A stretch of 53,557 nucleotides of DNA, taken from Bacteroidales bacterium. Lineage in GTDB: Bacteria; Bacteroidota; Bacteroidia; Bacteroidales; UBA12077. The position numbers were made by a program, and so were the translations under genes. The notes under the pieces were generated by a model. That model had not been told where the DNA came from. It searched no databases and saw only the letters and a list, made by a program, of their open reading frames with translations. The stretch is taken from the NCBI GenBank assembly GCA_028282585.1, contig JANQHR010000086.1, forward strand, positions 1 to 53,557. Direction: 5' to 3'. Positions 41,666-51,357 of the stretch are shown here, piece by piece. Position 1 is the stretch's first letter. Each line of letters begins with the position of its first letter.

Positions 41666-42052
41666 ATGTCATATTATTTCAATAAAATAATTTCAACAGA
41701 TTTTGATTCAGCAATCGAAAAAGTTACAGAACTACTAAAATCAGAAGGTTTTGGTGTGCTAACAGAAATTGATGTTAAAAAAACTCTAAAAGAAAAAATT
41801 AATGTTGATTTCAGAAAGTATAAAATTCTAGGAGCATGTAATCCACCCAGTGCATTCAAAGCCCTTTCAAACGAACCTTACATTGGTTTAATGTTACCCT
41901 GCAATGTTGTTGTTCAAGAAACTAATGATGGTAAAATTGACATTTCAGCCGTTGATCCTTTAGCTTCAATGCAAGCTGTAAATAATCCACAATTAGAAGA
42001 GGTTGCAAAAGACATTCGACTTAAATTGGAACTGGTAATAAATTCACTTTAA
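41666..42052 (+). CDS. DUF302 domain protein
   Basis: EGFGVLTEIDV, YKILGACNP, IGLMLPCNVVV. Confidence 0.92.
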   Translation: MSYYFNKIISTDFDSAIEKVTELLKSEGFGVLTEIDVKKTLKEKINVDFRKYKILGACNPPSAFKALSNEPYIGLMLPCNVVVQETNDGKIDISAVDPLASMQAVNNPQLEEVAKDIRLKLELVINSL

Positions 42053-42056
42053 AAAT

Positions 42057-42281
42057 ATGAAACGATTACGATTTAAATCCAGCCTTAAATGTAACGGCTG
42101 CGTTAATGCTATAAAACCTGGATTGGAAGCTATCAAGGATATCAAATTATGGAGAGTTTTTCTTGATGTGGAGGATAAAGTTATAGAAGTAGAAACCGAT
42201 AAAGATGAAGAAGCTGTTGCAAATTCTGTTCAGCAGGTTGTTACAAATGCTGGCTATATTATTGAAAGATTGAGAGGTTAA
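42057..42281 (+). CDS. Heavy-metal-associated (CopZ-like) chaperone
   Basis: 74 aa, LKCNGCV CxxC motif, immediately upstream of the P1B ATPase. Confidence 0.85.
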
Positions 42282-42286
42282 TTCTT

Positions 42287-44503
42287 ATGAACTTCAGGAA
42301 GGAAACATATCAGGTTGAAGGGATGAGTTGTGCGGTTTGTACTCAAAATGTTGAATCTGTGCTGTCTTCTTTAAAGGGAGTAAATTCGGCTCATGTTAAT
42401 TTCGCATCGGCCAGTGTTTTAGTTGAATTTAATGAAAAAGAAGTTTCTGAAAAAGAATTTCAAGAATCGATTGAAGGTATAGGCTATAAATTAATTATTG
42501 GTCAAAAAAATGACCCGATTTTCGAAATTCAGGAAAAGGAAAAACGCATTTTAAAGAAAGCTCGCGAAAAAGCACTATTTTCTAATTTGTTTGCACTTCC
42601 GGTTTTTATCCTTTCTATGTTTTTTCCTGATGTTCCTTATGCCAACTGGATTATGTTTATTCTGGCAATTCCTGTATTAAGCTGGTTTGGGCGAGATTTT
42701 TTTACAATTGCATATAAACAAGCAAGGCATGGCTCAACCAACATGGACACATTAGTCGCTTTAAGCACTGGAACTGCATTTTTATATAGTACATTTAATA
42801 CCATTTTTCCTGAATTTCTGCTAACAAATGGAATTAAACCACACGTTTATTTCGAAGCCGTTGTAATTATTATTGCACTTATTCTCTTAGGCAGGTATTT
42901 GGAAGAAAAAGCTAAATCAAAAACTTCTGATTCCATTAAAAAGTTAATGGGGTTAAAAGTTAAGACAGCCCAACTACTTCAAAATAAAACAGAAAAAAAA
43001 GTCTCCATTGACGATGTAAAAATTGGAGATATATTGATTATTCGTCCAGGTGAGAAAATTCCTGTCGATGGTAAAGTAATTAACGGATCATCTTATGTTG
43101 ATGAAAGTATGATAACCGGCGAACCTATTCCTGTTGAAAAAAAGGAAAATGATTACGTTATAGGAGCAACGGTAAATACAACAGGAAGTTTTAATATGGT
43201 AGCTGAAAAAATTGGAAAATATACAATGCTTTCCCAAATTATTGAAATGGTAAAAAATGCACAGGGTAGCAAAGCTCCTGTTCAAAAACTTGTAGATAAA
43301 ATTGCATCCGTTTTTGTTCCTGTAGTAATTAGTTTGGCAATAATTAGTTTTATTCTTTGGTATTTGTTAGGACCAGATCCTAAAATTACTTACGCATTTG
43401 TAACTTTAGTAACTGTCTTAATTATAGCCTGCCCCTGCGCATTAGGACTGGCAACACCTACTGCCTTGATGGTTGGAATTGGTAAAGGTGCGGAGAACGG
43501 AATCTTAATAAAAAATGCAGAAACGCTGGAAACGGCTAAAAAGATTGATGTGGTTGTTGTTGATAAAACAGGTACCATCACAAAAGGGCAACCGGAAGTA
43601 TCTGAAATAGTTTGGTTAAAAAGTGATATAAAGCGCAATGTAATTTTAGAAGATGTACTTGAAATTGAAAGAAAATCGGAACACCCACTAGCAGAGGCTA
43701 TTGTAAAATACCTTGATCATTTATCCAACTCCAGTTTAAATATTGTACAATTTAAGAGTCAAACGGGACTTGGTGTTTCGGCTACCATATATGAAAACAA
43801 TTATTTAATCGGAAATTACCAATTGATGAAAGAAAATCAGATTGATATAAATGAAGAACATCAGTACTTTGATCAGTTTGATAATTACGCACAGACTCTG
43901 GTTTTTATAGCCAAAAATAAAGTTTTAGTAGCACTTATTGCAATTTCCGATCAACTTAAGGAAAATTCAATATCAGCAATCAAAAGGCTTCAAAAAATGA
44001 ATATTGAAGTTCATATGCTTACTGGCGATAATAAAAAAACAGCGCAATCAATAGCTTCAAAAACTGGATTAAATCATTACAAAGCAGAAGTCCTACCAAA
44101 AGACAAATTAGACTATATAAGTAATTTACAATCCCAAAATTTAAATGTAACCATGGTAGGCGACGGAATTAATGATTCTCCTGCACTTTCAAAAGCCGAT
44201 GTTGGAATTGCAATAGGGCAAGGAACAGATATTGCAATGGAAAGCGCTGATATAACATTGGTAAAAGGAGATTTGGAAAAGATCGCAGCTTCAATCAAGT
44301 TGTCAAAAGCTACTTTTAAAACTATAAAGGAAAATTTATTCTGGGCATTTATTTATAATATTATTGCAATCCCCATTGCTGCAGGAATTTTGTATCCGAT
44401 AAATGGTTTTATGTTAAATCCTATGATTGCTGGCGGAGCAATGGCTTTCAGTTCTGTATCTGTTGTTCTAAATAGCCTTCGTTTAAAAGTAAAACCTGTT
44501 TAG
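42287..44503 (+). CDS. copA: Copper-translocating P1B-type ATPase
   Basis: [49 protein letters not shown]. Confidence 0.95.
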
Positions 44504-44575: not shown

Positions 44576-44965
44576 ATGGAATATATATTAAAAAATAAAA
44601 AACTGTTTTCTTTCATATTTTGGCTTTGGGTAGCTATAATACTATATTTTACTTTAACACCCAGTAGTCCACAAATGAAAGTTGACGTTAAGGAACAGAG
44701 TTTTCGATTAGACTATTTATTGCACTTTCTGGTATATTTCAGCTTGTCCATTCTATATTTGCTATGGAAAGCTGATAATTTTTTAAATGTCAAAGTTAAG
44801 TACTTAATATACTTTTTAGGGGGAGCATTAATTGTATCCGGATTAATTGAATACGTTCAACTATACATTCCTGGAAGATCCTTCAATCCTATCGACTATT
44901 TATCTAATGCTGCAGGAATAATTTTAGGAGTTGTTATCCCAAAAATTATATTTAATAACATTTAG
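44576..44965 (+). CDS. VanZ-family membrane protein
   Basis: DYLLHFLVY, IEYVQLYIPGRSF..DYLSNAAG. Confidence 0.88.
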   Translation: MEYILKNKKLFSFIFWLWVAIILYFTLTPSSPQMKVDVKEQSFRLDYLLHFLVYFSLSILYLLWKADNFLNVKVKYLIYFLGGALIVSGLIEYVQLYIPGRSFNPIDYLSNAAGIILGVVIPKIIFNNI

Positions 44966-46095
44966 TTCCATACTCCTGCTATAGAAGTATCACAACCTTT
45001 ACATTTTCCGTTAATAATATTATTTTGAGTAATTTTATAACCTTTTCGTTCAATAGCTAGTTTATTACAGCTTGGGCAATACGTATTTTGTGCGTTTGAT
45101 CCGGGAACATTTCCAATATATACATAGTTTAACCCAGCGTCTTGCGCAATTTTATATGCATTGTTTAACGTTAGGATTGGTGTTGAAGGTAAATGAGTAA
45201 GTTTATACATTGGAGTAAACCTGCTGAAATGCAATGGAGTATTTTCAAATCCATTTTTATATAACCAGTTACACATCCGTTCTATCATATCCAAATTATC
45301 AGTCCATTCGGGAACAATCAAGTTGGTAATTTCCAACCATACACCTTCCTCTTTTAAAATCTTTAATGTATCTAAAATTGTCTGTAATTCTCCTGCATTT
45401 AAACGCGCATAAATATCATCTTCAAAACTTTTTAAATCAATATTGGCAGCATGAATATATTTGGCAACCTCTCTTAAAGGTTTTTCATTAATATAACCCG
45501 CTGAAACCATTACATTTTTTATGCCATTTTCGTTTGCTGTTTTCGAAGAATCCAGGAAATATTCGTAAAAAGCAATAGGTTCAGAATAAGTATATGCTAT
45601 TGATTTACATCTATAGTGCTTGGCTTGCTTATAAACTTCTGAAGGCATTAAGTCGTAATTCCTTGTTTCTTCTGGACTAACTTGAGAAATCTGCCAATTT
45701 TGGCAATTTAAACATGCCAAATTACAGCCCGCAACTGCTAGAGAAAATGTTTTACTTTCCGGTAAAAAATGATATAGTGGCTTTTTCTCAATAGGATCAA
45801 CGTGCAGTGAGCAAGGATTACCATAACCTATTGAGTATATTTTATCTTTATAATTAATTCTTGATCTGCAGTCGCCAACCTCTCCTTCCTTTAATGTACA
45901 TTCATTTGGGCAAATCAAACATTTTACTCCTCTTGGTGTATCAATATAATATTTTGAAAGCTTACTCCATTTCCATAAATCATTACTTGTTAATACATCT
46001 GACATCGCAAGCACCTTATCAAGCCCTAAAGTACAAGTACAAGCTCCTAAGAATCCACACTTTAAAAACTCCCGCTTAGTAATTTTCTTGCCCAT
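44962..46095 (-). CDS. amrS: AmmeMemoRadiSam system radical SAM enzyme with Tat-like N-terminus
   Basis: CLICPNEC, DPIEKKPLYHF, GCNLACLNCQNW, AYTYSEP, NIDLK, PLHFSRF, YVYIGNV, CPSC..CKGC; N-terminal TKREFLK. Confidence 0.93.
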   Translation of the reverse strand: MGKKITKREFLKCGFLGACTCTLGLDKVLAMSDVLTSNDLWKWSKLSKYYIDTPRGVKCLICPNECTLKEGEVGDCRSRINYKDKIYSIGYGNPCSLHVDPIEKKPLYHFLPESKTFSLAVAGCNLACLNCQNWQISQVSPEETRNYDLMPSEVYKQAKHYRCKSIAYTYSEPIAFYEYFLDSSKTANENGIKNVMVSAGYINEKPLREVAKYIHAANIDLKSFEDDIYARLNAGELQTILDTLKILKEEGVWLEITNLIVPEWTDNLDMIERMCNWLYKNGFENTPLHFSRFTPMYKLTHLPSTPILTLNNAYKIAQDAGLNYVYIGNVPGSNAQNTYCPSCNKLAIERKGYKITQNNIINGKCKGCDTSIAGVWN

Positions 46096-46133
46096 GCTAA
46101 TATAACGTTTATTATACAGGATATGTTTCTGTG

Positions 46134-48263
46134 TTATCTTGATTTACTTATCATTACCAAAGTTAAATTAAAAAGCCCTGTTATTAAAGCAGACCAAATA
46201 AATCCGAACAAAGGAATAAGATATATCGTAAGTATTAATGCTCCGGCTGCTGCCCCAAGAAGATCTAGACCATATGCACTGGAAGCTATATTACCATAAT
46301 CTTTTTGTGAAATTTTACTTGCAACCGAAAAAACTGCTCCTGTTAATATTGAAATTATAAGTACTAACATTGCAAAAATGATAAATTGAATCACGTCGGG
46401 AATTTCTATGTTTTTAATCAGTATAAAAACAATTGGTAGTAAAAAAGCAAAAACAGAGATGGCCGTTTGCAAATATTTAAATCGAAGTAAATCTATTTCT
46501 TTTAGAAGTTTCGGAAAATAATAAGAGCCATATGCTAATCCTCCCATAAAAATCATTATAAAAATACCAGCCACAGCATATACATACCCAAATGCTACCT
46601 GAAATACTAAAAGTAATAAAATTTCAATGCTGGTTCCCGCAAATCCTGCTGCAAAAACTCCTTTATAAATTGTATCGGCTTTTAAAAAAAAGAATCCGGA
46701 AAATAATAAAATAAATAATGCCGGTATCCAATACTTAATATTAAAATGACTCATCCACAATTGTATCTGACTTTGATAAAATATGGGACTAAAATCCTGA
46801 TTAACAAGAACAGAATGATCAATTTGCTGATGTAGGTGCTTGCTCCTGGATTCCAATAAATAATCATCGAAATAATAAGAATTAACATATTCTGTTGGGA
46901 TATTCAAATACTCTATAGTTTCTGCTATTTTGTAGGTTAAATCGTTATCGGATGCGATTAAAAAGTCTTTACTTGCCGGAAGAATTAAAACATTTTTAAA
47001 TTCAGAATTTAATGTTTTAAATATAATTGACAACAATTTTTTTGCCTCATCACTTAAATAATTAGCACTTGATGGCATTGATAATGATACAACTGCATTC
47101 TTATTTAGGTTTTCCTTTAAAAGCTGAAAAAATTCCTTTGTGTAATAACGATTTAATTGAATTGTGGATGGCTTGGGAAGATTTATTAACACGATATCGT
47201 ATTTGTTGTTAGTTCTTCTTAAAAATCTAGCAGGATCACTTTCAATTAAGTTAAGAGTTTGATATTGTTCAGGGTTTAAAGTATGTTTAGCTATTTTAAA
47301 TATTTCCGGATTAATATCAACATAATCAACACGATTAACCTCATACTCGCTTACTTCTTCCATTATTCCGGGAATAAGCCCTGACAATACTAAAACCATT
47401 TTAGGATTTTTATGCTGAACCATTGCCAGATGAACTGACTCTTCTTTAGTTATAATATCTCCTGAAGAAGCCATAAGTATGTTATTTTCGTAATAATTGA
47501 GTTGATCTCCTTGCTCTGTAATTGCAAAAACTCCAAAAGGAGAATCACTTATATATGTTATTTTCTGTGAAGGAAATGCCATTTCACGAACTTTCTTATC
47601 AAGATCCTCATTTATAAAAAAATAACCAGAAATGAATGTTACAATAATTATTAATCCTGATTTAACATATTGATCATTTTTAACACTTAAAAATACTGTA
47701 ATCATCACAACAACAACCATAACTATATATAAACTCTGAAATGTTGTTGAAATCCAGATTAAAATAAAATTGATAATTATTCCCCCAATCAAGCTTCCAA
47801 GAGATTCCCAGGCATAAACATCTCCAATTCGATTCTTATTTGTTATAATAGATTCTTCTTGAGCAAATAGAGTAAATAATATTCCTGAAATAACACAAAA
47901 TGGGAAAAGTATTATTAAAGAATAATAAAAAACATGTAATATACCTGCCATCATACCGGGAAGAAACAAGGAGTACCATGCATAATGTAAAACCAAAACA
48001 GTAACAATTGGAATAAATGCTAAAATGCCCAATAAAGTTAAAATCCATTGTGCCCTATTTCCTTTATTCCCAATAAATTTCCCCAAATAGGCCCCAAAAC
48101 CTGTGAGCAACATCCAGTTTGCCAGAAGAATCCCTATAACCAACTCATTTCCACTAAATAATGTCAAAAATTCTCTGAGCAATATAATTTGGGTAGCAAT
48201 TGCAATAAAACCCAACATTATTATGCCAGGTTTTACTAGTTTTATTTGATAATTTCTTGTCAT
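46134..48263 (-). CDS. Polytopic membrane protein with internal spermidine-synthase-like SAM-binding domain
   Basis: TM block QIILLREF..GNEL..YAWESLGS; central EESVH, VLVLSG, VDINP, YDIVLINLP, YYTKEFF; second TM block ending YGLDLLG. Confidence 0.8.
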   Translation of the reverse strand: MTRNYQIKLVKPGIIMLGFIAIATQIILLREFLTLFSGNELVIGILLANWMLLTGFGAYLGKFIGNKGNRAQWILTLLGILAFIPIVTVLVLHYAWYSLFLPGMMAGILHVFYYSLIILFPFCVISGILFTLFAQEESIITNKNRIGDVYAWESLGSLIGGIIINFILIWISTTFQSLYIVMVVVVMITVFLSVKNDQYVKSGLIIIVTFISGYFFINEDLDKKVREMAFPSQKITYISDSPFGVFAITEQGDQLNYYENNILMASSGDIITKEESVHLAMVQHKNPKMVLVLSGLIPGIMEEVSEYEVNRVDYVDINPEIFKIAKHTLNPEQYQTLNLIESDPARFLRRTNNKYDIVLINLPKPSTIQLNRYYTKEFFQLLKENLNKNAVVSLSMPSSANYLSDEAKKLLSIIFKTLNSEFKNVLILPASKDFLIASDNDLTYKIAETIEYLNIPTEYVNSYYFDDYLLESRSKHLHQQIDHSVLVNQDFSPIFYQSQIQLWMSHFNIKYWIPALFILLFSGFFFLKADTIYKGVFAAGFAGTSIEILLLLVFQVAFGYVYAVAGIFIMIFMGGLAYGSYYFPKLLKEIDLLRFKYLQTAISVFAFLLPIVFILIKNIEIPDVIQFIIFAMLVLIISILTGAVFSVASKISQKDYGNIASSAYGLDLLGAAAGALILTIYLIPLFGFIWSALITGLFNLTLVMISKSR

Positions 48264-48265
48264 GC

Positions 48266-48595
48266 CTAACTTTTAGAAAAAATAATTTTAATTGCTTTTT
48301 TGAAATAGGTAAGATGCCACAAAAAATGGAAAAGTGCTGTTATAAACCAAACTATTCCAACAGTTACATGAAGTTGAAGTAAAAAGTATGGAATATTAAT
48401 ATTTAATTCAAAACTGTAAACAAAAGACATAAATATTCCTATTGAACCTGCAATTAAAAAAGAAACAAGTAATATTAAATTCCAGATACGACGATGCTTG
48501 GTAAACTTTAGATATTTTGTTTTTGTTAAAAAGTAGCTTGAAAAATATATCATTAAACAAATTACAGTAACTGGTAAAAATGCGTATGTGCCCAT
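48266..48595 (-). CDS. Small membrane protein, DUF4405/cytochrome b-like
   Basis: Three hydrophobic helices; H-x13-H-x3-H in LHVTVGIVWFITALFHFLWH. Confidence 0.6.
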   Translation of the reverse strand: MGTYAFLPVTVICLMIYFSSYFLTKTKYLKFTKHRRIWNLILLVSFLIAGSIGIFMSFVYSFELNINIPYFLLQLHVTVGIVWFITALFHFLWHLTYFKKAIKIIFSKS

Positions 48596-48599
48596 ATAA

Positions 48600-50135
48600 T
48601 TATTTTTTTATGTCTTCCTCATCAAAAACCAAAGCTTCGTAAGTGTAAATATCGGCTTCTTTCCAACCTTCCCAACCTATTCCTGCTTTATTTCTTGCAC
48701 AATATCCCAAAAATTCTTCTTTGGTCCAACCAGTTTGTAAAGCAACTTGTGGTAAAAAAGTACCTGTAGCAAAACCTTTTTTTATATAAATTCCATGCTT
48801 CCCCATTTCAATTTCATCGATTGATTCAATTTTCTTTAATGGAGTTAAAACGGATATTTCCAAATCTATATTATTCATTTCGTCCATTTCCACAACAGGG
48901 AATCTATGATCTTCAGTAGCAGCAGCAATAGCCATTTTTTGTATAGTTTCATATAGTGGTATATCGGCAACAAAACGCCCAATGCAACCTCGTAAAGCTC
49001 CTTCTTTATGAAGACTTACAAATGCTCCGCATTTAGATTCCATAGCTGGTGTTATTAATGATTGATCAACTTTTGGATATTTCCCAGAAGTTAGATATTC
49101 GTTAATAGTTTGTCTTGCAATTTTTAAGAGCTCTTCCTTTTCATCAATAGTTAATGTAAACTGATTCTCTGACATATTTGACATTTTTTTCTTAGCAAAA
49201 ACAATAGCATGATAACCAACTACTCTGCTTTTATCTCCCAGTGCATCGCCAGAATTTTGATACACAACAGGAATAATTTCTAGTGAACGGTCTTTCTCCG
49301 TAATATTTAATAAAGTTAAAACTGCTGGCCACCCACACATACTAGTAACCAGATTTTCAATATTCGCAGATGCATTTTCATTAATTGCATCAATTAACTT
49401 ATTTGCTGAATTTGATAATATGGCATCGCCTGTCTTTTTATCGGCTAATAAAGCATTTTCATATTTAGGATAATGCGAAAAATCTGTACTTATAACAAAA
49501 AGATTTTTTTCATTAAAATAAGGTTCCAATACTTCTGCCATTTGTTTTACTTCTCCCAAAGTTTGTGTTCCGGTTACAATAGGTACAATTTGAAAATCCT
49601 TTCTCAGCTTATATTGTAAAAACGGCAACTGAACTTCTAAACTGTGTTCAGCAGAATGGGCTTCCGGATTAAAACTAAATATTTTATTTTCTTCAATTAA
49701 TTTATTTGCTAAATCTTGATTAACTGCTACATTACCTAAAGGAGTAATATAATCTCCCTGATTATAAATTGAAGCTCCTTTAAAAAGAGTTCGGTGACTG
49801 GAAGCTATCACGAAAATATTTTCGTATTCTTTATCGGGGTCTATCTGATTGTAAGCAGAAGCTGCAACTTTCCCGGAATAAACATAACCTGCGTGTGGAG
49901 CAATAATTGCCAAAACATGATCATAGGTTTTAACCTTAGAAGCTTGTGCAAATAATGATTCTAGCTGAACTTTTAAAGCTGTCGCGTTTCCCGGATAAAA
50001 TGTTCCGGCAACAACAGGCTCCCTGTTTATAAAGCTATCCAACTGTTTTGTGTCTGATTGAGAATTACATTCGATAACTAGAACCGTAAACAGAAATAAT
50101 AAAAATAGTTTAGGATATTTGAACAACTGTAACAT
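48600..50135 (-). CDS. amrB: AmmeMemoRadiSam protein B (Memo-like) fused to protein A (AMMECR1-like), with export signal
   Basis: VAGTFYP, APHAGYVYSG, EHSLEVQLPF, STDFSHY, MCG; then GAFVSL..LRGCIG, ISVLT, TFLPQV; hydrophobic N-terminal extension. Confidence 0.93.
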   Translation of the reverse strand: MLQLFKYPKLFLLFLFTVLVIECNSQSDTKQLDSFINREPVVAGTFYPGNATALKVQLESLFAQASKVKTYDHVLAIIAPHAGYVYSGKVAASAYNQIDPDKEYENIFVIASSHRTLFKGASIYNQGDYITPLGNVAVNQDLANKLIEENKIFSFNPEAHSAEHSLEVQLPFLQYKLRKDFQIVPIVTGTQTLGEVKQMAEVLEPYFNEKNLFVISTDFSHYPKYENALLADKKTGDAILSNSANKLIDAINENASANIENLVTSMCGWPAVLTLLNITEKDRSLEIIPVVYQNSGDALGDKSRVVGYHAIVFAKKKMSNMSENQFTLTIDEKEELLKIARQTINEYLTSGKYPKVDQSLITPAMESKCGAFVSLHKEGALRGCIGRFVADIPLYETIQKMAIAAATEDHRFPVVEMDEMNNIDLEISVLTPLKKIESIDEIEMGKHGIYIKKGFATGTFLPQVALQTGWTKEEFLGYCARNKAGIGWEGWKEADIYTYEALVFDEEDIKK

Positions 50136-50232
50136 CTATAAATGATTTTAGCTAAGTTATGAAATTAGAAATGGATAGTCAATAATATTCGTTTGTCTTT
50201 AGCTAAGCTAAATTTTGTTACTTTTGATTTTG

Positions 50233-51357
50233 ATGGTAATATTCGAATATACTGCATTTATTATATTAAGTGTCTATTCCTTAATTATTATTGGATTCTC
50301 AATTGGTTGGGTAAAGATTAAAAGATTCCAAATAAGAGAAAGTATTGACCCAATTCGCGTAAGTATTATAATAGCATGTAGGAATGAAGAAGAAAACATT
50401 CAACAATTTCTAAATTGCCTTGTTGCCCAGAAATACCCTAAAAATAAAACAGAAATAATTATTATTGATGATCATTCAGAAGATAATACTGTAACTTTCA
50501 TCAAAAAAAAAATAGCAAAAAATAATCATATCAAGTATCTGCAATTACCACCAGGTAAAATAGGCAAAAAGGAAGCAATAGCATATGGCATAGAAAATTC
50601 AACTTCTGAAATTATATTAACTACCGATGCCGATTGTGAAATGAAAGAAAACTGGATCTGCTCAATGGTTAGTTATTACATAAATTACCAACCAAAATTA
50701 CTTTCGGGCCCGGTTACTTTAAAAAAAACACCTGGTTTATTTCAAAATTTCCAATCACTAGAGTTTTTAAGCCTTGTTGGAGCAGGAGCAGGAGCAATAG
50801 GATTAAAAAAACCAATAATGAATAATGGGGCAAATCTCTTATTCGAAAAAAAATTGTTTCTTGAATCTAATCAATATAAAGATTATGCTTCAGGTGATGA
50901 TATTTTTTTAATGCTACATACAAAAGGAAATTATAGAAAAGAAATCCACTTTATTAAATCAAAGGATGCAATTGTATATACAAATGGATTAAACAAAATA
51001 AGCAGTTTTTTTAATCAAAGAATTAGATGGACATCGAAAAGTAAAGCTTATAGCGATTTTGATATAACATTTACTGCCATTATAGTTAGCCTGATAAATT
51101 CAATGTTAGTTCTAACCATATTATTATCGTTTTGGGAAAGATCATTTTTTTTTACATTCTTAATTATTTTCATGGTAAAATCAATTGTTGATTTAGTAAT
51201 CTTAATTCCTGTATCTTCATTCTTTGATAAAAGAAATTTAATTTGGCTATTCTTTCCTTTACAATTAATATATCCGTTCTATATTTTGGCAACTGTTATT
51301 TTAGGTTTGATAGGAATTTTTAAGTGGAAAAACAGAACTTTTAGAGAAAAAAGATAA
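50233..51357 (+). CDS. GT2-family membrane glycosyltransferase
   Basis: IIACRNEE, DDHSED, TTDADC, SGDD, QRIRW; ATG 50233 preferred (TACTTTTG at 50219-50226). Confidence 0.9.
   Translation: MVIFEYTAFIILSVYSLIIIGFSIGWVKIKRFQIRESIDPIRVSIIIACRNEEENIQQFLNCLVAQKYPKNKTEIIIIDDHSEDNTVTFIKKKIAKNNHIKYLQLPPGKIGKKEAIAYGIENSTSEIILTTDADCEMKENWICSMVSYYINYQPKLLSGPVTLKKTPGLFQNFQSLEFLSLVGAGAGAIGLKKPIMNNGANLLFEKKLFLESNQYKDYASGDDIFLMLHTKGNYRKEIHFIKSKDAIVYTNGLNKISSFFNQRIRWTSKSKAYSDFDITFTAIIVSLINSMLVLTILLSFWERSFFFTFLIIFMVKSIVDLVILIPVSSFFDKRNLIWLFFPLQLIYPFYILATVILGLIGIFKWKNRTFREKR

What the first reader, a model, noticed from the sequence alone, without database searches (positions are those of the whole stretch)
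44962..50135. Apparently extracytoplasmic AmmeMemoRadiSam system with dedicated membrane partners
Seen: tight minus-strand operon (gaps of 4, 2 and 38 nt) of signal-bearing AmrB-AmrA fusion, His-rich membrane protein, 709-aa membrane protein with a SAM-binding-type domain, and AmrS with a Tat-like leader. Known: the AmrA/B/S trio is widespread, functionally unresolved and usually cytoplasmic; radical SAM enzymes need SAM and low-potential electrons, which the periplasm normally lacks. Inference: a self-contained periplasmic radical-SAM machine in which one membrane protein supplies SAM or removes its products and the other supplies electrons, acting on an unknown envelope or imported substrate.
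Basis: partly seen in the sequence, partly recalled or inferred. Interest (0 to 1): 0.86.

Follow-up and report, generated by a model that had tools for sequence, protein, structure and literature searches.

The report
Exported radical-SAM system with membrane partner
A second copy of the enigmatic Memo/AMMECR1/radical-SAM gene trio carries export signals on its proteins and always travels with a large membrane protein, which suggests radical-SAM chemistry is done outside the cytoplasm, where its cofactor and electrons are not known to be available.

Summary
Window 44962-50135 (minus strand) encodes four genes. They are a Memo-AMMECR1 fusion with a Sec-type signal, a 109-aa 3-TM protein with four invariant His, a 709-aa membrane protein, and an AmrS radical SAM enzyme with a 30-aa Tat-like leader (K-R-x-F-L-K). 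The same genome also holds a canonical, signal-less trio.

In 301 genomes of the phylum, leader-type AmrS and the full-length 709-aa protein occur in exactly the same 11 genomes. None of 19 leaderless AmrS loci has the 709-aa protein nearby.

The 709-aa protein has two homologous 6-TM repeats. A TM hairpin between them carries a spermidine-synthase-fold domain, predicted periplasmic, with degenerate catalytic motifs. That domain is predicted to dock on AmrS (ipSAE 0.82, best control 0.00).

The 109-aa protein looks like a DUF4405-type cytochrome b. It is an accessory, present in 11 of 24 genus genomes. Near relatives of this AmrS elsewhere are fused to extracytosolic electron-transfer modules (flavinylated FMN_bind, NosR-like, DsbD-like).

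Verdict: a real, widespread, apparently undescribed exported variant of the AmmeMemoRadiSam system. Localisation, SAM supply and substrate are inferred, not shown.

The parts
48600..50135 (-). AmrB-AmrA fusion (Memo + AMMECR1), 511 aa, with N-terminal Sec-type signal
   Evidence: Pfam and NCBIfam matches. Fused, signal-bearing homologues lie next to the 709-aa gene in 47 of 47 loci that have at least 3 kb of flank.
50061..50135 (-). Signal peptide of AmrB-A (residues 1-25). Predicted signal peptidase I cleavage ...C-N-S|Q.
   Evidence: Hydrophobic core in 53 of 53 homologues; Cys followed by [SA]-Q in 48 of 53. The pattern fits the Bacteroidetes Q-rule (PMC5837995 and PMC10653852, abstracts seen in the listing). 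The cleavage site is inferred.
49203..50021 (-). Memo domain (residues 39-311)
   Evidence: PF01875 E 1.7e-62. Nearest solved structure is MEMO1 (7kq8, 3bcz).
48624..49127 (-). AMMECR1 domain (residues 337-504)
   Evidence: PF01871 E 1.3e-51. Nearest solved structures are 1zq7 and 1vaj.
48266..48595 (-). 109-aa, 3-TM accessory protein with four invariant His; candidate DUF4405/FezC-like b-type cytochrome
   Evidence: H34, H76, H90 and H94 are invariant in 11 homologues. Pfam DUF4405 E 0.012, 16.6 bits, below the 26.7 cut-off. Atlas score 0.96 to a DUF4405-named cluster. Present in 11 of 24 genus genomes.
46134..48263 (-). 709-aa, 14-TM protein: 6-TM repeat, TM7, periplasmic spermidine-synthase-fold domain, TM8, 6-TM repeat
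   Evidence: AF2 model with pLDDT 85 and pTM 0.85. hhalign of the two TM blocks gives probability 98.6%. Loop K+R pattern. Co-occurs with leader-type AmrS.
47610..48236 (-). TM1-TM7 (residues 10-218)
   Evidence: Helices in the AF2 model. Mean K+R per loop over 14 homologues alternates 4.1 / 0 / 3.6 / 0.3 / 1.8 / 0.1 / 2.2.
46746..47603 (-). Spermidine-synthase-fold domain (residues 221-506), predicted periplasmic, catalytic motifs degenerate
   Evidence: Foldseek hits 1uir, 6bq2 and 1inl at E 1e-11 to 1e-9, TM-score about 0.7 on the target. The motif comparison is in the alignment. Predicted interface with AmrS.
46140..46730 (-). TM8-TM14 (residues 512-708)
   Evidence: AF2 helices. K+R pattern 1.9 / 0.1 / 3.0 / 0.8 / 1.9 / 0 / 2.1. 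TM9-14 aligns with TM1-6.
44962..46095 (-). AmrS radical SAM enzyme, 377 aa, with Tat-like leader
   Evidence: TIGR04337 at 354 bits against a cut-off of 220. All 13 cysteines of the N-terminal four-Cys group, C95, the C124/C128/C131 motif, and the C-terminal four-Cys group are conserved in 121 sequences.
46006..46095 (-). Tat-like leader (residues 1-30): T-K-R-E-F-L-K, a mildly hydrophobic h-region, then V-L-A|M
   Evidence: Motif present in 119 of 120 homologues. Of 65 AmrS next to the 709-aa gene, 60 have K-R-x-F, 4 have R-R-x-F and 1 has T-R-Q-F. TatC is present in the genome.
45703..45726 (-). CX3CX2C radical SAM cluster motif (C124, C128, C131)
   Evidence: Invariant. Residues 132-136 just after the motif lie in the predicted interface with the 709-aa protein.

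Best explanation
This is a paralogous, exported version of the AmmeMemoRadiSam system. It works at the outer face of the cytoplasmic membrane as a three-part unit.

**Shown by sequence and comparison**
- The genome keeps a canonical signal-less AmrA/AmrS/AmrB set elsewhere.
- The window's set has a Sec-type signal on the fused Memo-AMMECR1 protein and a Tat-type leader on AmrS.
- It is genomically tied to a 14-TM protein.

**Predicted**
- AmrS folds and takes up its Fe-S clusters in the cytoplasm and is exported by Tat. The K-R variant of the motif is used in Bacteroidota and Ignavibacteriota, and R-R in other lineages.
- Memo-AMMECR1 is exported by Sec and cleaved before a Gln.
- The 709-aa protein places its spermidine-synthase-fold domain in the periplasm on a TM7/TM8 hairpin inserted between two homologous 6-TM bundles.
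- That domain docks on the face of AmrS next to the cluster loop.

**Inferred, my favoured mechanism (about 0.35 on its own)**
- The 12-TM core conducts SAM outward, or takes methionine and 5'-deoxyadenosine back in.
- The periplasmic domain has lost the aminopropyl-transfer residues but kept the two acidic adenosyl-binding residues. It holds the nucleoside and hands it to AmrS.

**Electrons**
- They come from separate membrane redox modules that differ between lineages. In this genus the module is sometimes the 109-aa four-His DUF4405-like cytochrome b.
- In other lineages the modules are FMN_bind, NosR-like or DsbD-like and are fused to AmrS itself.

**Substrate**
- Unknown. It must be extracytoplasmic (envelope lipid, isoprenoid or polymer).

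The confidence given is for the core claim: an exported three-part unit in which the membrane protein binds AmrS.
For: **Internal control.** The same genome has a leaderless AmrA (176 aa), AmrS (336 aa) and AmrB (278 aa) on contig C105.

**Leader conservation.**
- 119 of 120 homologues carry the motif.
- R8 and F10 are invariant in 44 sequences.
- Of 65 AmrS beside the membrane gene, 60 have KR, 4 have RR and 1 has TR.
- 31 of the best 150 cluster representatives of the wider family carry Tat-like leaders, mostly true R-R.
- A natural K-R Tat signal is on record for TtrB (passage read in PMC1182353).
- TatC is present in the own genome and in 299 of 301 sampled genomes, including all 11 with the system.

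**AmrB-A signal.** 53 of 53 homologues have the hydrophobic core.

**Co-occurrence.**
- The same 11 of 301 genomes hold leader-type AmrS and the full-length 709-aa protein.
- In 47 loci with at least 3 kb of flank, AmrB-A is adjacent in 47 and AmrS in 43.
- The other 4 genomes hold a leader-type AmrS elsewhere.
- 0 of 19 leaderless AmrS loci have the 709-aa gene within about 6 kb.

**Topology.** K+R alternates between loops across 14 homologues. TM1-6 is homologous to TM9-14, so TM7 and TM8 are extra helices that flank the domain.

**Fold and motifs.** SpeE fold. Motif I and the first catalytic Asp are lost; D316 and D343 are kept.

**Docking.**
- ipSAE 0.82, 0.80 and 0.82, against a best control of 0.00.
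- The mark was reached by 58 of 80 solved complexes and 2 of 110 mismatched pairs. These counts hold only roughly because my own alignments were used.
- The runs share at least 86% of contacts, and the partner pLDDT is at least 86.
- The model supports binding; it does not show it.

**Extracytosolic context of relatives.**
- P0142 and P0152 have an N-terminal TM, then FMN_bind with an S-G-A-T motif, then AmrS, with no TM between the two domains.
- Other relatives are fusions with NosR-like and DsbD_2 modules.
- Flavinylated proteins serve extracytosolic electron transfer (bioRxiv 10.1101/2024.03.13.584918; abstract and passages read).
Against: - No localisation, expression or activity data exist. 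No RNA run was listed.
- No SignalP, TatFind or TM predictor was available. The signals and topology rest on my own motif and hydropathy scripts.
- SAM and low-potential reductants are not known to occur in the periplasm.
- The same K+R logic also puts the intact, canonical-motif SpeE domain of 504-544-aa 7-TM relatives outside the cell. Either that is a further surprise or the topology rule misleads for this family.
- AF2 draws residues 656-708 as one 53-residue helix, whereas the repeat alignment implies two TMs there.
- Residues conserved only in the exported AmrS clade are not enriched in the predicted interface: 3 of 18 in 34 of 332 positions, against 1.8 expected.
- Most systems have no recognisable electron-transfer partner nearby.
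- Some fused relatives have N-terminal hydrophobic segments without an R-R or K-R motif (P0122, P0128, P0152). If these are exported by Sec, Fe-S insertion would be unexplained.
- The leader-bearing rows are not strictly one clade in the tree; 2-3 changes of the label are needed.
Confidence: 0.6

Rival explanations
1. The three-part unit is exported as above, but the 709-aa protein handles the substrate rather than the cofactor. Its 12-TM core flips or extracts a membrane lipid or isoprenoid (or imports or exports a small molecule). Its degenerate SpeE-fold domain holds that substrate in front of the AmrS active site. Memo-AMMECR1 carries out the neighbouring steps.
For: - The predicted interface uses the AmrS face beside the cluster loop (residues 95-101 and 132-136). 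On the partner it uses conserved pocket-side residues such as Q254 and Y402.
- The catalytic and dcSAM-specific residues of SpeE are lost.
- Two homologous 6-TM bundles are a transporter-like layout.
- From recall of its abstract only (the paper is not held), Burroughs et al. 2019 (J Biol Chem) linked Memo contexts to aliphatic isoprenoid modification.
Against: - The two acidic residues that bind the adenosyl ribose and adenine in SpeE are kept (D316 conservatively, D343 invariantly). This speaks for a nucleoside ligand.
- This reading leaves the SAM supply unexplained.
- No lipid-pathway gene is a conserved neighbour outside the genus.
Confidence: 0.25
2. The periplasmic SpeE-fold domain of the 709-aa protein is itself the protein substrate of AmrS, in the way pyruvate formate-lyase is the substrate of its activase. 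AmrS installs a radical or a covalent modification on a loop of the membrane protein, for example around Y402, and so switches on or matures a transporter or enzyme.
For: - AmrS is nearest to pyruvate formate-lyase activating enzyme among solved structures (3c8f, E 4.5e-6) and among NCBIfam families.
- The lowest-error predicted contacts put Y402 of the membrane protein against AmrS residues 95, 96, 135, 136 and 144, next to the cluster motif.
- Y402 is nearly invariant.
Against: - There is no glycyl-radical-type motif or other known target motif in the domain.
- The canonical cytoplasmic trio works without any such partner, so the family's basic substrate is something else.
- No coordinates could be inspected, so how far Y402 reaches into the active site is unknown.
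Confidence: 0.1
3. Nothing is exported. The N-terminal extensions tether AmrS and Memo-AMMECR1 to the cytoplasmic face of the membrane, or bind a chaperone. The SpeE-fold domain is cytoplasmic, so SAM and reductants come from the cytoplasm as usual.
For: - Radical SAM chemistry needs SAM and a low-potential donor, both cytoplasmic as far as is known.
- The first Arg of the Tat motif is Lys in the Bacteroidota and Ignavibacteriota members.
- The topology inference would also put apparently active SpeE domains of 7-TM relatives outside the cell, which is awkward.
Against: - Three independent features point to the same side of the membrane. These are a classic n-h-c signal with a Q-rule cleavage pattern on AmrB-A, a Tat consensus on AmrS with R-R in other lineages, and the K+R alternation together with two extra TM helices flanking the domain.
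- The positively charged N-termini of both leaders favour N-in, C-out.
- Relatives are fused directly to a flavinylation-motif FMN_bind domain, an extracytosolic module, with no TM between.
Confidence: 0.07

Closest known systems
Canonical AmmeMemoRadiSam system (NCBIfam TIGR04335 AmrA, TIGR04336 AmrB, TIGR04337 AmrS)
   Same: All three families are matched above their curated cut-offs. The genes sit in one operon. All Cys motifs of AmrS are conserved. A canonical copy exists in the same genome.
   Different: - AmrB and AmrA are fused and carry a Sec-type signal.
- AmrS carries a Tat-type leader of about 30 residues.
- A 14-TM protein with a SpeE-fold domain is an obligatory genomic companion.
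- No leaderless locus examined has that companion (0 of 19).
Pyruvate formate-lyase activating enzyme (PDB 3c8f/3cb8)
   Same: It is the nearest solved relative of AmrS by sequence (E 4.5e-6 over residues 121-277). It has the same CX3CX2C radical SAM core.
   Different: - PFL-AE is cytoplasmic, has 245 residues and lacks the extra N- and C-terminal four-Cys groups.
- AmrS scores far below the PFL-AE equivalog cut-off (52.5 against 231.75 bits).
Membrane-anchored polyamine aminopropyltransferases (NCBIfam PRK03612-type; 504-544-aa examples L126-L128)
   Same: - The N-terminal TM block plus SpeE-fold domain of the 709-aa protein aligns with PRK03612 (E 3.2e-35).
- Both show the same 7-TM, N-in K+R pattern.
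- Both have the SpeE fold.
   Different: - The score is far below the equivalog cut-off (121.5 against 472 bits).
- The Gly-rich motif lacks its Asp, and the first Asp of the D-x-x-D-P catalytic motif is not conserved.
- A second TM hairpin helix and a second 6-TM repeat follow the domain.
- It is tied to amr genes.
DUF4405 / FezC haem-b membrane cytochromes (bioRxiv 10.1101/2024.03.13.584918; passages read)
   Same: - The 109-aa protein has TM helices with four invariant His.
- It gives a full-length but sub-threshold DUF4405 match and an Atlas score of 0.96 to a DUF4405-named cluster.
- The paper reports that FezC builds DUF4405-like haem sites by homodimerising, which a 3-TM protein like this one would also have to do.
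   Different: It scores below Pfam's gathering threshold. Haem binding is untested. There is no apbE or flavoprotein neighbour here. Its linkage to an amr operon has not been described.
Tat-exported Fe-S proteins with a K-R variant signal (Salmonella TtrB, as cited in PMC1182353)
   Same: [quoted passage not shown]
   Different: No radical SAM enzyme appears as a Tat substrate in the papers my searches returned. Export of AmrS is untested.

Membership tests
AmmeMemoRadiSam system | Radical SAM enzyme matching TIGR04337 above its cut-off | tested here: met
   353.8 bits against a cut-off of 220.
AmmeMemoRadiSam system | Memo-type AmrB (TIGR04336) and AMMECR1-type AmrA (TIGR04335) above their cut-offs, encoded beside AmrS | tested here: met
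   252.2 bits against a cut-off of 26, and 169.2 bits against 99. Both lie in one fused ORF in the same operon.
AmmeMemoRadiSam system | CX3CX2C cluster motif intact | tested here: met
   C124, C128 and C131 are invariant in 121 and in 44 sequences.
Tat substrates | Twin-arginine consensus (S/T-R-R-x-F-L-K; consensus recalled) near the N-terminus | tested here: inconclusive
   The window has T-K-R-E-F-L-K. Of 65 clade members, 60 have K-R, 4 have R-R and 1 has T-R. R8 and F10 are invariant. A K-R variant is known to occur naturally (PMC1182353).
Tat substrates | Tat machinery encoded in the genome | tested here: met
   TatC at 221.6 bits on contig C47. TatC is present in all 11 system-bearing genomes of the sample, but also in 299 of 301 overall, so it does not discriminate.
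Tat substrates | Tat-dependent export shown by experiment | not testable with these tools
Spermidine synthase / polyamine aminopropyltransferase | PF01564 match and SpeE fold | tested here: met
   63.4 bits against a cut-off of 22.9. Foldseek hit to 1uir at E 1.4e-11, TM-score 0.69 on the target.
Spermidine synthase / polyamine aminopropyltransferase | Gly-rich loop with its acidic residue, and the catalytic Asp of the D-x-x-D-P motif (roles recalled from SpeE structures) | tested here: not met
   The window reads S-G-L-I-P-G and N-L-P-K-P where T. thermophilus SpeE reads G-G-G-E-G and D-L-T-D-P. The first Asp is not conserved in 14 homologues. All NCBIfam equivalog cut-offs are missed.
DUF4405 cytochrome b (109-aa protein) | Pfam PF14358 above the gathering score | tested here: not met
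   16.6 bits against a cut-off of 26.7, E 0.012.
DUF4405 cytochrome b (109-aa protein) | Conserved His pairs in TM helices able to ligate haem | tested here: met
   H34, H76, H90 and H94 are invariant in 11 sequences. Haem binding itself cannot be tested here.
Major facilitator superfamily (709-aa protein) | Sequence match to an MFS family | tested here: not met
   No MFS family at E <= 0.01 in Pfam. NF037959 is matched only over the SpeE part and below its cut-off. The Atlas gives only a 0.84 lead.
Major facilitator superfamily (709-aa protein) | Two homologous 6-TM bundles in the same orientation | tested here: met
   hhalign of TM1-6 against TM9-14 gives probability 98.6%, E 6.6e-15 over 180 columns. 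Hydrophobic composition can inflate such scores.

The most novel reading that the evidence does not exclude
Radical SAM chemistry is carried out in the periplasm by a whole class of AmrS enzymes that Tat exports with their clusters in place.
- SAM reaches them through a dedicated conduit: the 6+6-TM core of the 709-aa protein. Its periplasmic SpeE-fold domain hands the cofactor to the enzyme.
- Electrons cross the membrane through interchangeable modules: a DUF4405-like cytochrome b, NosR-like flavin/Fe-S modules, or DsbD-like modules.
- By the same logic, the 7-TM spermidine-synthase relatives with intact catalytic motifs would make aminopropyl transfers outside the cell.
- Because the exported set must act on an envelope molecule, it would also narrow the long-sought substrate class of the Memo and AMMECR1 families.
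Probability: 0.25. Interest if true: 0.92.

Novelty: new variant of a known kind. Interest (0 to 1): 0.8.

Why it matters
**An open family function.** Memo and AMMECR1 are conserved from archaea to humans and are linked to human disease. Their biochemical function, and that of the radical SAM partner, is unresolved. An exported paralogue beside a cytoplasmic one gives a natural experiment: its substrate has to be outside the cytoplasm.

**A compartment problem.** A Tat-targeted radical SAM enzyme raises a direct question of how SAM and low-potential electrons reach the periplasm. The obligatory 14-TM partner, its predicted docking on AmrS, and the fusions of relatives to extracytosolic redox modules turn that question into testable parts.

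**Not a curiosity of one genome.** A scan of one genome per species found 520 relatives of the membrane protein. Those examined come from records labelled Bacteroidota and Ignavibacteriota, plus a few labelled Terriglobia and others.

**Prior description.** I found no paper in the held library that describes any of this. The most relevant paper, Burroughs et al. 2019, is not held, and supplements were not consulted, so prior mention cannot be excluded.

Tried and rejected
**Lipoprotein reading of the AmrB-A signal.** A Cys follows the hydrophobic core in 48 of 53 homologues. However, the residue before the Cys is often D or E, and the pattern C-x-[SA]-Q recurs. I therefore prefer signal peptidase I cleavage before Gln (the Q-rule). 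This is not tested.

**MFS membership of the TM core.** No family match was found. The Atlas gave only a 0.84 lead to clusters in which 12-15% of members carry MFS_1.

**Co-evolution check.** Residues conserved only in the exported AmrS clade are not enriched in the predicted interface (3 of 18, 1.8 expected).

**Promoter and terminator scan.**
- 46 promoter-like sites against 33.6 +/- 5.0 in shuffles of AT-rich DNA, which is uninformative for a Bacteroidota-type organism.
- One terminator-like site, inside AmrS, against 2.8 expected.

**Expression.** No RNA holder was listed, and read laying was not used.

**Conserved extra neighbours.** Clustering of ORFs around 78 loci found none beyond genus-level synteny. 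Inserted genes in some loci are unrelated: class IV aminotransferase and IS200-like transposase, and ORFs that look like toxin-antitoxin genes by eye only.

**TatC as a discriminator.** It is present in 299 of 301 genomes, so it is only a necessary condition that is met.

**One origin of the leader.** The tree needs 2-3 changes of the label, and long branches blur the base.

**Unused or capped tools.**
- The second structure job was not used.
- No coordinates of the models could be inspected.

Full report
**What is there.** Window 44962-50135 holds four co-directional minus-strand ORFs separated by 4, 2 and 38 nt.
- The first (511 aa) is a fusion of a Memo domain (residues 39-311) and an AMMECR1 domain (337-504). 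It matches AmrB (TIGR04336) and AmrA (TIGR04335) above their cut-offs.
- The last (377 aa) matches the AmmeMemoRadiSam radical SAM enzyme TIGR04337 at 354 bits (cut-off 220), but only from residue 56 on.
- Between them lie a 109-aa protein with three hydrophobic stretches and no family match at E <= 0.01, and a 709-aa protein. The latter carries a Spermine_synth domain flanked by two blocks of hydrophobic helices.

Only 'His-rich' is generous, since the small protein has 4 His in 109 residues.

**An internal control.** The same genome (4.89 Mb, 173 contigs) has a second AmrS on contig C105. It sits between a 176-aa AmrA and a 278-aa AmrB, and all three start directly with their domains, without N-terminal extensions. 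The window's set is thus an extra, modified paralogue beside a canonical one. In a sample of 301 genomes of the phylum, 10 of the 11 genomes with the modified AmrS also have a leaderless copy.

**The signals.**
- AmrS begins M-G-K-K-I-T-K-R-E-F-L-K. A mildly hydrophobic Gly/Cys/Thr-rich stretch and V-L-A follow.
- Of the 120 best homologues (61-89% identity), 119 carry [KR]R-x-hydrophobic-hydrophobic in the first 30 residues.
- R8 and F10 are invariant in an alignment of 44 sequences down to 41% identity.
- Among 65 AmrS genes lying beside the 709-aa gene in public genomes, 60 have K-R-x-F and 4 have R-R-x-F. The R-R cases are records labelled Terriglobia and Candidatus Zhuqueibacter. One has T-R-Q-F-L-K.
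- In a search of 1.84 billion cluster representatives, 31 of the best 150 relatives have Tat-like leaders, most with a true R-R.
- A natural K-R Tat signal on an Fe-S protein, TtrB, is documented (passage read in PMC1182353).
- TatC is encoded in the genome. My motif scan of the whole genome found only two other credible Tat-like N-termini, both R-R.
- The Memo-AMMECR1 protein starts with two Lys, a 12-residue hydrophobic core and E-C-N-S-Q. All 53 measured homologues beside the membrane gene have such a core, and 48 have Cys followed by [SA]-Q. I read this as signal peptidase I cleavage before Gln, the Bacteroidetes Q-rule (PMC5837995, PMC10653852; abstracts seen), rather than a lipobox. This is an inference.

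**Co-occurrence.**
- In the 301-genome sample, AmrS is found in 81 genomes. In 10 of them the alignment reaches the leader, and an eleventh (G113) has its own S-R-R-E-F-V leader.
- Full-length matches to the 709-aa protein occur in exactly these 11 genomes. The other 47 genomes with any match align only to the SpeE part, or to the N-terminal TM block plus SpeE part.
- In nine of these genomes the three genes lie within a few kb of each other on one contig (in one of the nine, G245, AmrS is cut by a contig end). In G085 the AmrB-A gene lies about 6 kb from AmrS, and in G197 a contig break separates AmrS from the other two. Gene order varies.
- A scan of one genome per species found 520 relatives of the membrane protein, of which the best 80 were fetched. 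Of these, 78 contain the whole gene. Of 47 with at least 3 kb on both sides, 47 have the fused AmrB-A and 43 have AmrS within the flank.
- The four genomes without an adjacent AmrS have a leader-type AmrS elsewhere, as does G328.
- Conversely, none of 19 leaderless AmrS loci has the 709-aa gene within about 6 kb.
- The closest leaderless relative (G335, 51% identity) has a fused AmrB-A without a signal. No 709-aa homologue was found in that genome, which is 86% complete.

**The 709-aa protein.**
- AlphaFold2 with 14 homologues gives a confident model (pLDDT 85, pTM 0.85). It shows seven helices, a mixed alpha/beta domain (221-506), and six or seven more helices.
- Foldseek matches the domain to spermidine and thermospermine synthases (1uir, 6bq2, 1inl; E 1e-11 to 1e-9; TM-score about 0.7 on the target).
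- Aligned with T. thermophilus SpeE, the Gly-rich loop G-G-G-E-G reads S-G-L-I-P-G, and D-L-T-D-P reads N-L-P-K-P. Across 14 homologues the first Asp is not conserved.
- The positions that bind the adenosyl ribose and adenine in SpeE (roles recalled) are kept: D316, which is D or E, and D343, which is invariant.
- It is therefore not an aminopropyltransferase by its motifs, and it misses every NCBIfam equivalog cut-off. It may still hold an adenosyl compound.
- Over the 14 homologues, the mean K+R count per loop alternates: 4.1 (N-terminus), 0, 3.6, 0.3, 1.8, 0.1, 2.2, then the domain, then 1.9, 0.1, 3.0, 0.8, 1.9, 0, 2.1 (C-terminus).
- A profile-profile alignment shows that TM1-6 and TM9-14 are homologous (probability 98.6%, E 6.6e-15).
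- The protein is thus two like-oriented 6-TM bundles with TM7, the domain and TM8 inserted between them. Two extra helices are what one expects if the domain sits on the far side of the membrane from the inter-repeat loop. I conclude N-in, C-in, domain periplasmic.
- Caveats: no TM predictor was available, AF2 draws 656-708 as one long helix, and the same rule places the intact SpeE domains of shorter 7-TM relatives outside as well.

**Predicted docking.** I folded mature AmrS (31-377, 44-row alignment) together with the domain (220-510, 14-row alignment).
- The scores were ipSAE 0.82, 0.80 and 0.82, against 0.00 for the best of three controls.
- That mark was reached by 58 of 80 solved complexes and 2 of 110 mismatched pairs. 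These counts hold only roughly because my own alignments were used.
- The runs share at least 86% of contacts, and the partner pLDDT is at least 86.
- The model supports binding; it does not show it.
- The interface uses AmrS residues 95-101 and 132-136, directly after the C124/C128/C131 motif. On the partner it uses 251-256 (Q254 invariant), 400-405 (Y402 nearly invariant) and 458-473.
- Residues specific to the exported AmrS clade are not enriched there.

**The 109-aa protein.**
- It is a real gene: homologues of 58-73% identity occur in 11 of 24 genomes of the genus.
- It is optional. Sister operons have only 6-133 nt between AmrB-A and the membrane gene, and only 6 of 78 wider loci have it.
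- One of those six is a 36%-identical copy in the same position in a distant lineage, with all four His kept.
- Pfam gives a full-length but sub-threshold DUF4405 match (E 0.012). The Atlas gives 0.96 to a DUF4405-named cluster.
- DUF4405 and FezC are reported as haem-b cytochromes of membrane electron transfer, and FezC forms its haem sites as a homodimer (bioRxiv 10.1101/2024.03.13.584918; abstract and passages read).
- I rate 'accessory cytochrome b' at about 0.5.

**Relatives point the same way.** Several of the best-scoring representatives are fusions (Pfam).
- P0142 and P0152: one N-terminal hydrophobic segment, an FMN_bind domain with an S-G-A-T motif, then AmrS with no TM between.
- P0123 and P0131: FMN_bind and Fer4_5 (NosR/NapH-like) before AmrS.
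- P0130 and P0146: DsbD_2 before AmrS.
- P0145: all three modules.
- P0128: signal, Memo, AMMECR1 and AmrS in one chain.

Flavinylated FMN_bind domains serve extracytosolic electron transfer according to the paper above. These proteins have no genomic context here and are leads. Even so, they show independently that AmrS domains are wired to extracytoplasmic redox modules.

**Evolution.** In a maximum-likelihood tree of 47 AmrS, 30 leader-bearing rows and the leaderless G335 row form a well-supported clade (97/92). G113 and two long-branch canonical rows sit just outside, and the leader label needs 2-3 changes. Rows labelled Terriglobia are nested deep among Bacteroidota and Ignavibacteriota rows, which suggests transfer or mis-binning. 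One genus member (G315, 100% complete) retains only the small gene and an AMMECR1-only remnant.

**Mechanism and its status.**
- Shown: composition, conservation and co-occurrence.
- Predicted: export routes, topology and docking.
- Inferred: the role of the membrane protein. I favour a SAM conduit and hand-off (about 0.35), ahead of substrate handling (0.25) and of the membrane protein being the protein substrate (0.1).
- The electron source for most systems and the substrate are unknown.

**Literature.**
- The term AmmeMemoRadiSam occurs in six held papers, only in passing judging by their titles and single occurrences (listing).
- 'radical SAM' with AMMECR1 and Memo occurs in one paper, which cites Burroughs et al. 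2019 (passage read).
- Searches combining radical SAM with twin-arginine, Tat signal and periplasm returned nothing on an exported radical SAM enzyme. I read listings, and passages in PMC10924467 and PMC13128918.
- Burroughs et al. 2019 is not held. I recall from its abstract only that it links Memo contexts to nucleotide-base and isoprenoid modification.
- Supplements were not consulted.

Noticed in passing
G000 contig C105 (locus L004 6817-9473): A canonical, signal-less AmrA (176 aa), AmrS (336 aa) and AmrB (278 aa) trio in the same genome. The window's operon is therefore an additional paralogous set.
   Followed up: yes
L126, L127, L128 (G016, G169, G271): Spermidine synthases of 504-544 aa with 7 TM and intact G-G-G-D-G and D-x-x-D-P motifs. 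They show the same N-in K+R pattern, which would place an apparently active aminopropyltransferase domain outside the cytoplasm.
   Followed up: partly
Proteins P0142, P0152, P0123, P0131, P0130, P0145, P0146, P0128, P0122, P0125: Near relatives of this AmrS occur fused to other modules: FMN_bind (with an S-G-A-T motif), Fer4_5/NosR-like, DsbD_2, CBM_11 and beta-propeller. P0128 is a signal-Memo-AMMECR1-AmrS triple fusion. Their genomic context is unknown.
   Followed up: partly
L035 9066-9982 (G315, 100% complete): An eroded locus. The 109-aa gene and an AMMECR1-only 187-aa ORF remain next to the GT2 gene. No 709-aa gene and no leader-type AmrS was found in this genome.
   Followed up: partly
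L044 4430-6929 (G335): A leaderless AmrS (51% identity) with a fused but signal-less AmrB-A and no 709-aa gene. It falls inside the exported clade in the tree on a long branch, so it may be a secondary return to the cytoplasm.
   Followed up: partly
L081 6559-6921: A 36%-identical homologue of the 109-aa protein occupies the same position (between AmrB-A and the membrane gene) in a distant Bacteroidales lineage. All four His are kept.
   Followed up: yes
window 41666-44503 (+): A DUF302 protein, a 74-aa ORF with no family match, and a heavy-metal (HMA-domain) P-type ATPase lie downstream of the operon on the other strand. A homologous ATPase recurs near the operon in 16 of the fetched loci, which looks like genus-level synteny. 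Any link to Memo's reported metal binding is speculation.
   Followed up: no
window 50215-51357 (+) and 44576-44965 (+): A family-2 glycosyltransferase with a C-terminal TM region is transcribed divergently from the operon. A VanZ-like gene converges on it, and its end overlaps the AmrS stop codon by 4 nt. Both are conserved beside the operon within the genus only.
   Followed up: partly
L084, L096, L124 (labelled Terriglobia) and L080 (Candidatus Zhuqueibacter): These systems use a true R-R Tat motif and are nested deep within Bacteroidota and Ignavibacteriota rows in the AmrS tree. This suggests horizontal transfer or mis-binned contigs.
   Followed up: no
L008 10274-11200 and 12536-13081; L011 1578-7353; L068 and L079, between the membrane gene and AmrS: In some lineages unrelated genes are inserted between the three core genes. 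Examples are a class IV aminotransferase, an IS200-like transposase, and small ORFs that look like toxin-antitoxin pairs (by eye only). The unit tolerates being split.
   Followed up: no
G000 contigs C111 (52018, +) and C125 (35617, +): Apart from AmrS, only two ORFs in the genome have a convincing N-terminal twin-arginine motif by my scan (303 aa and 460 aa, both R-R). The Tat substrate set of this organism appears very small.
   Followed up: no
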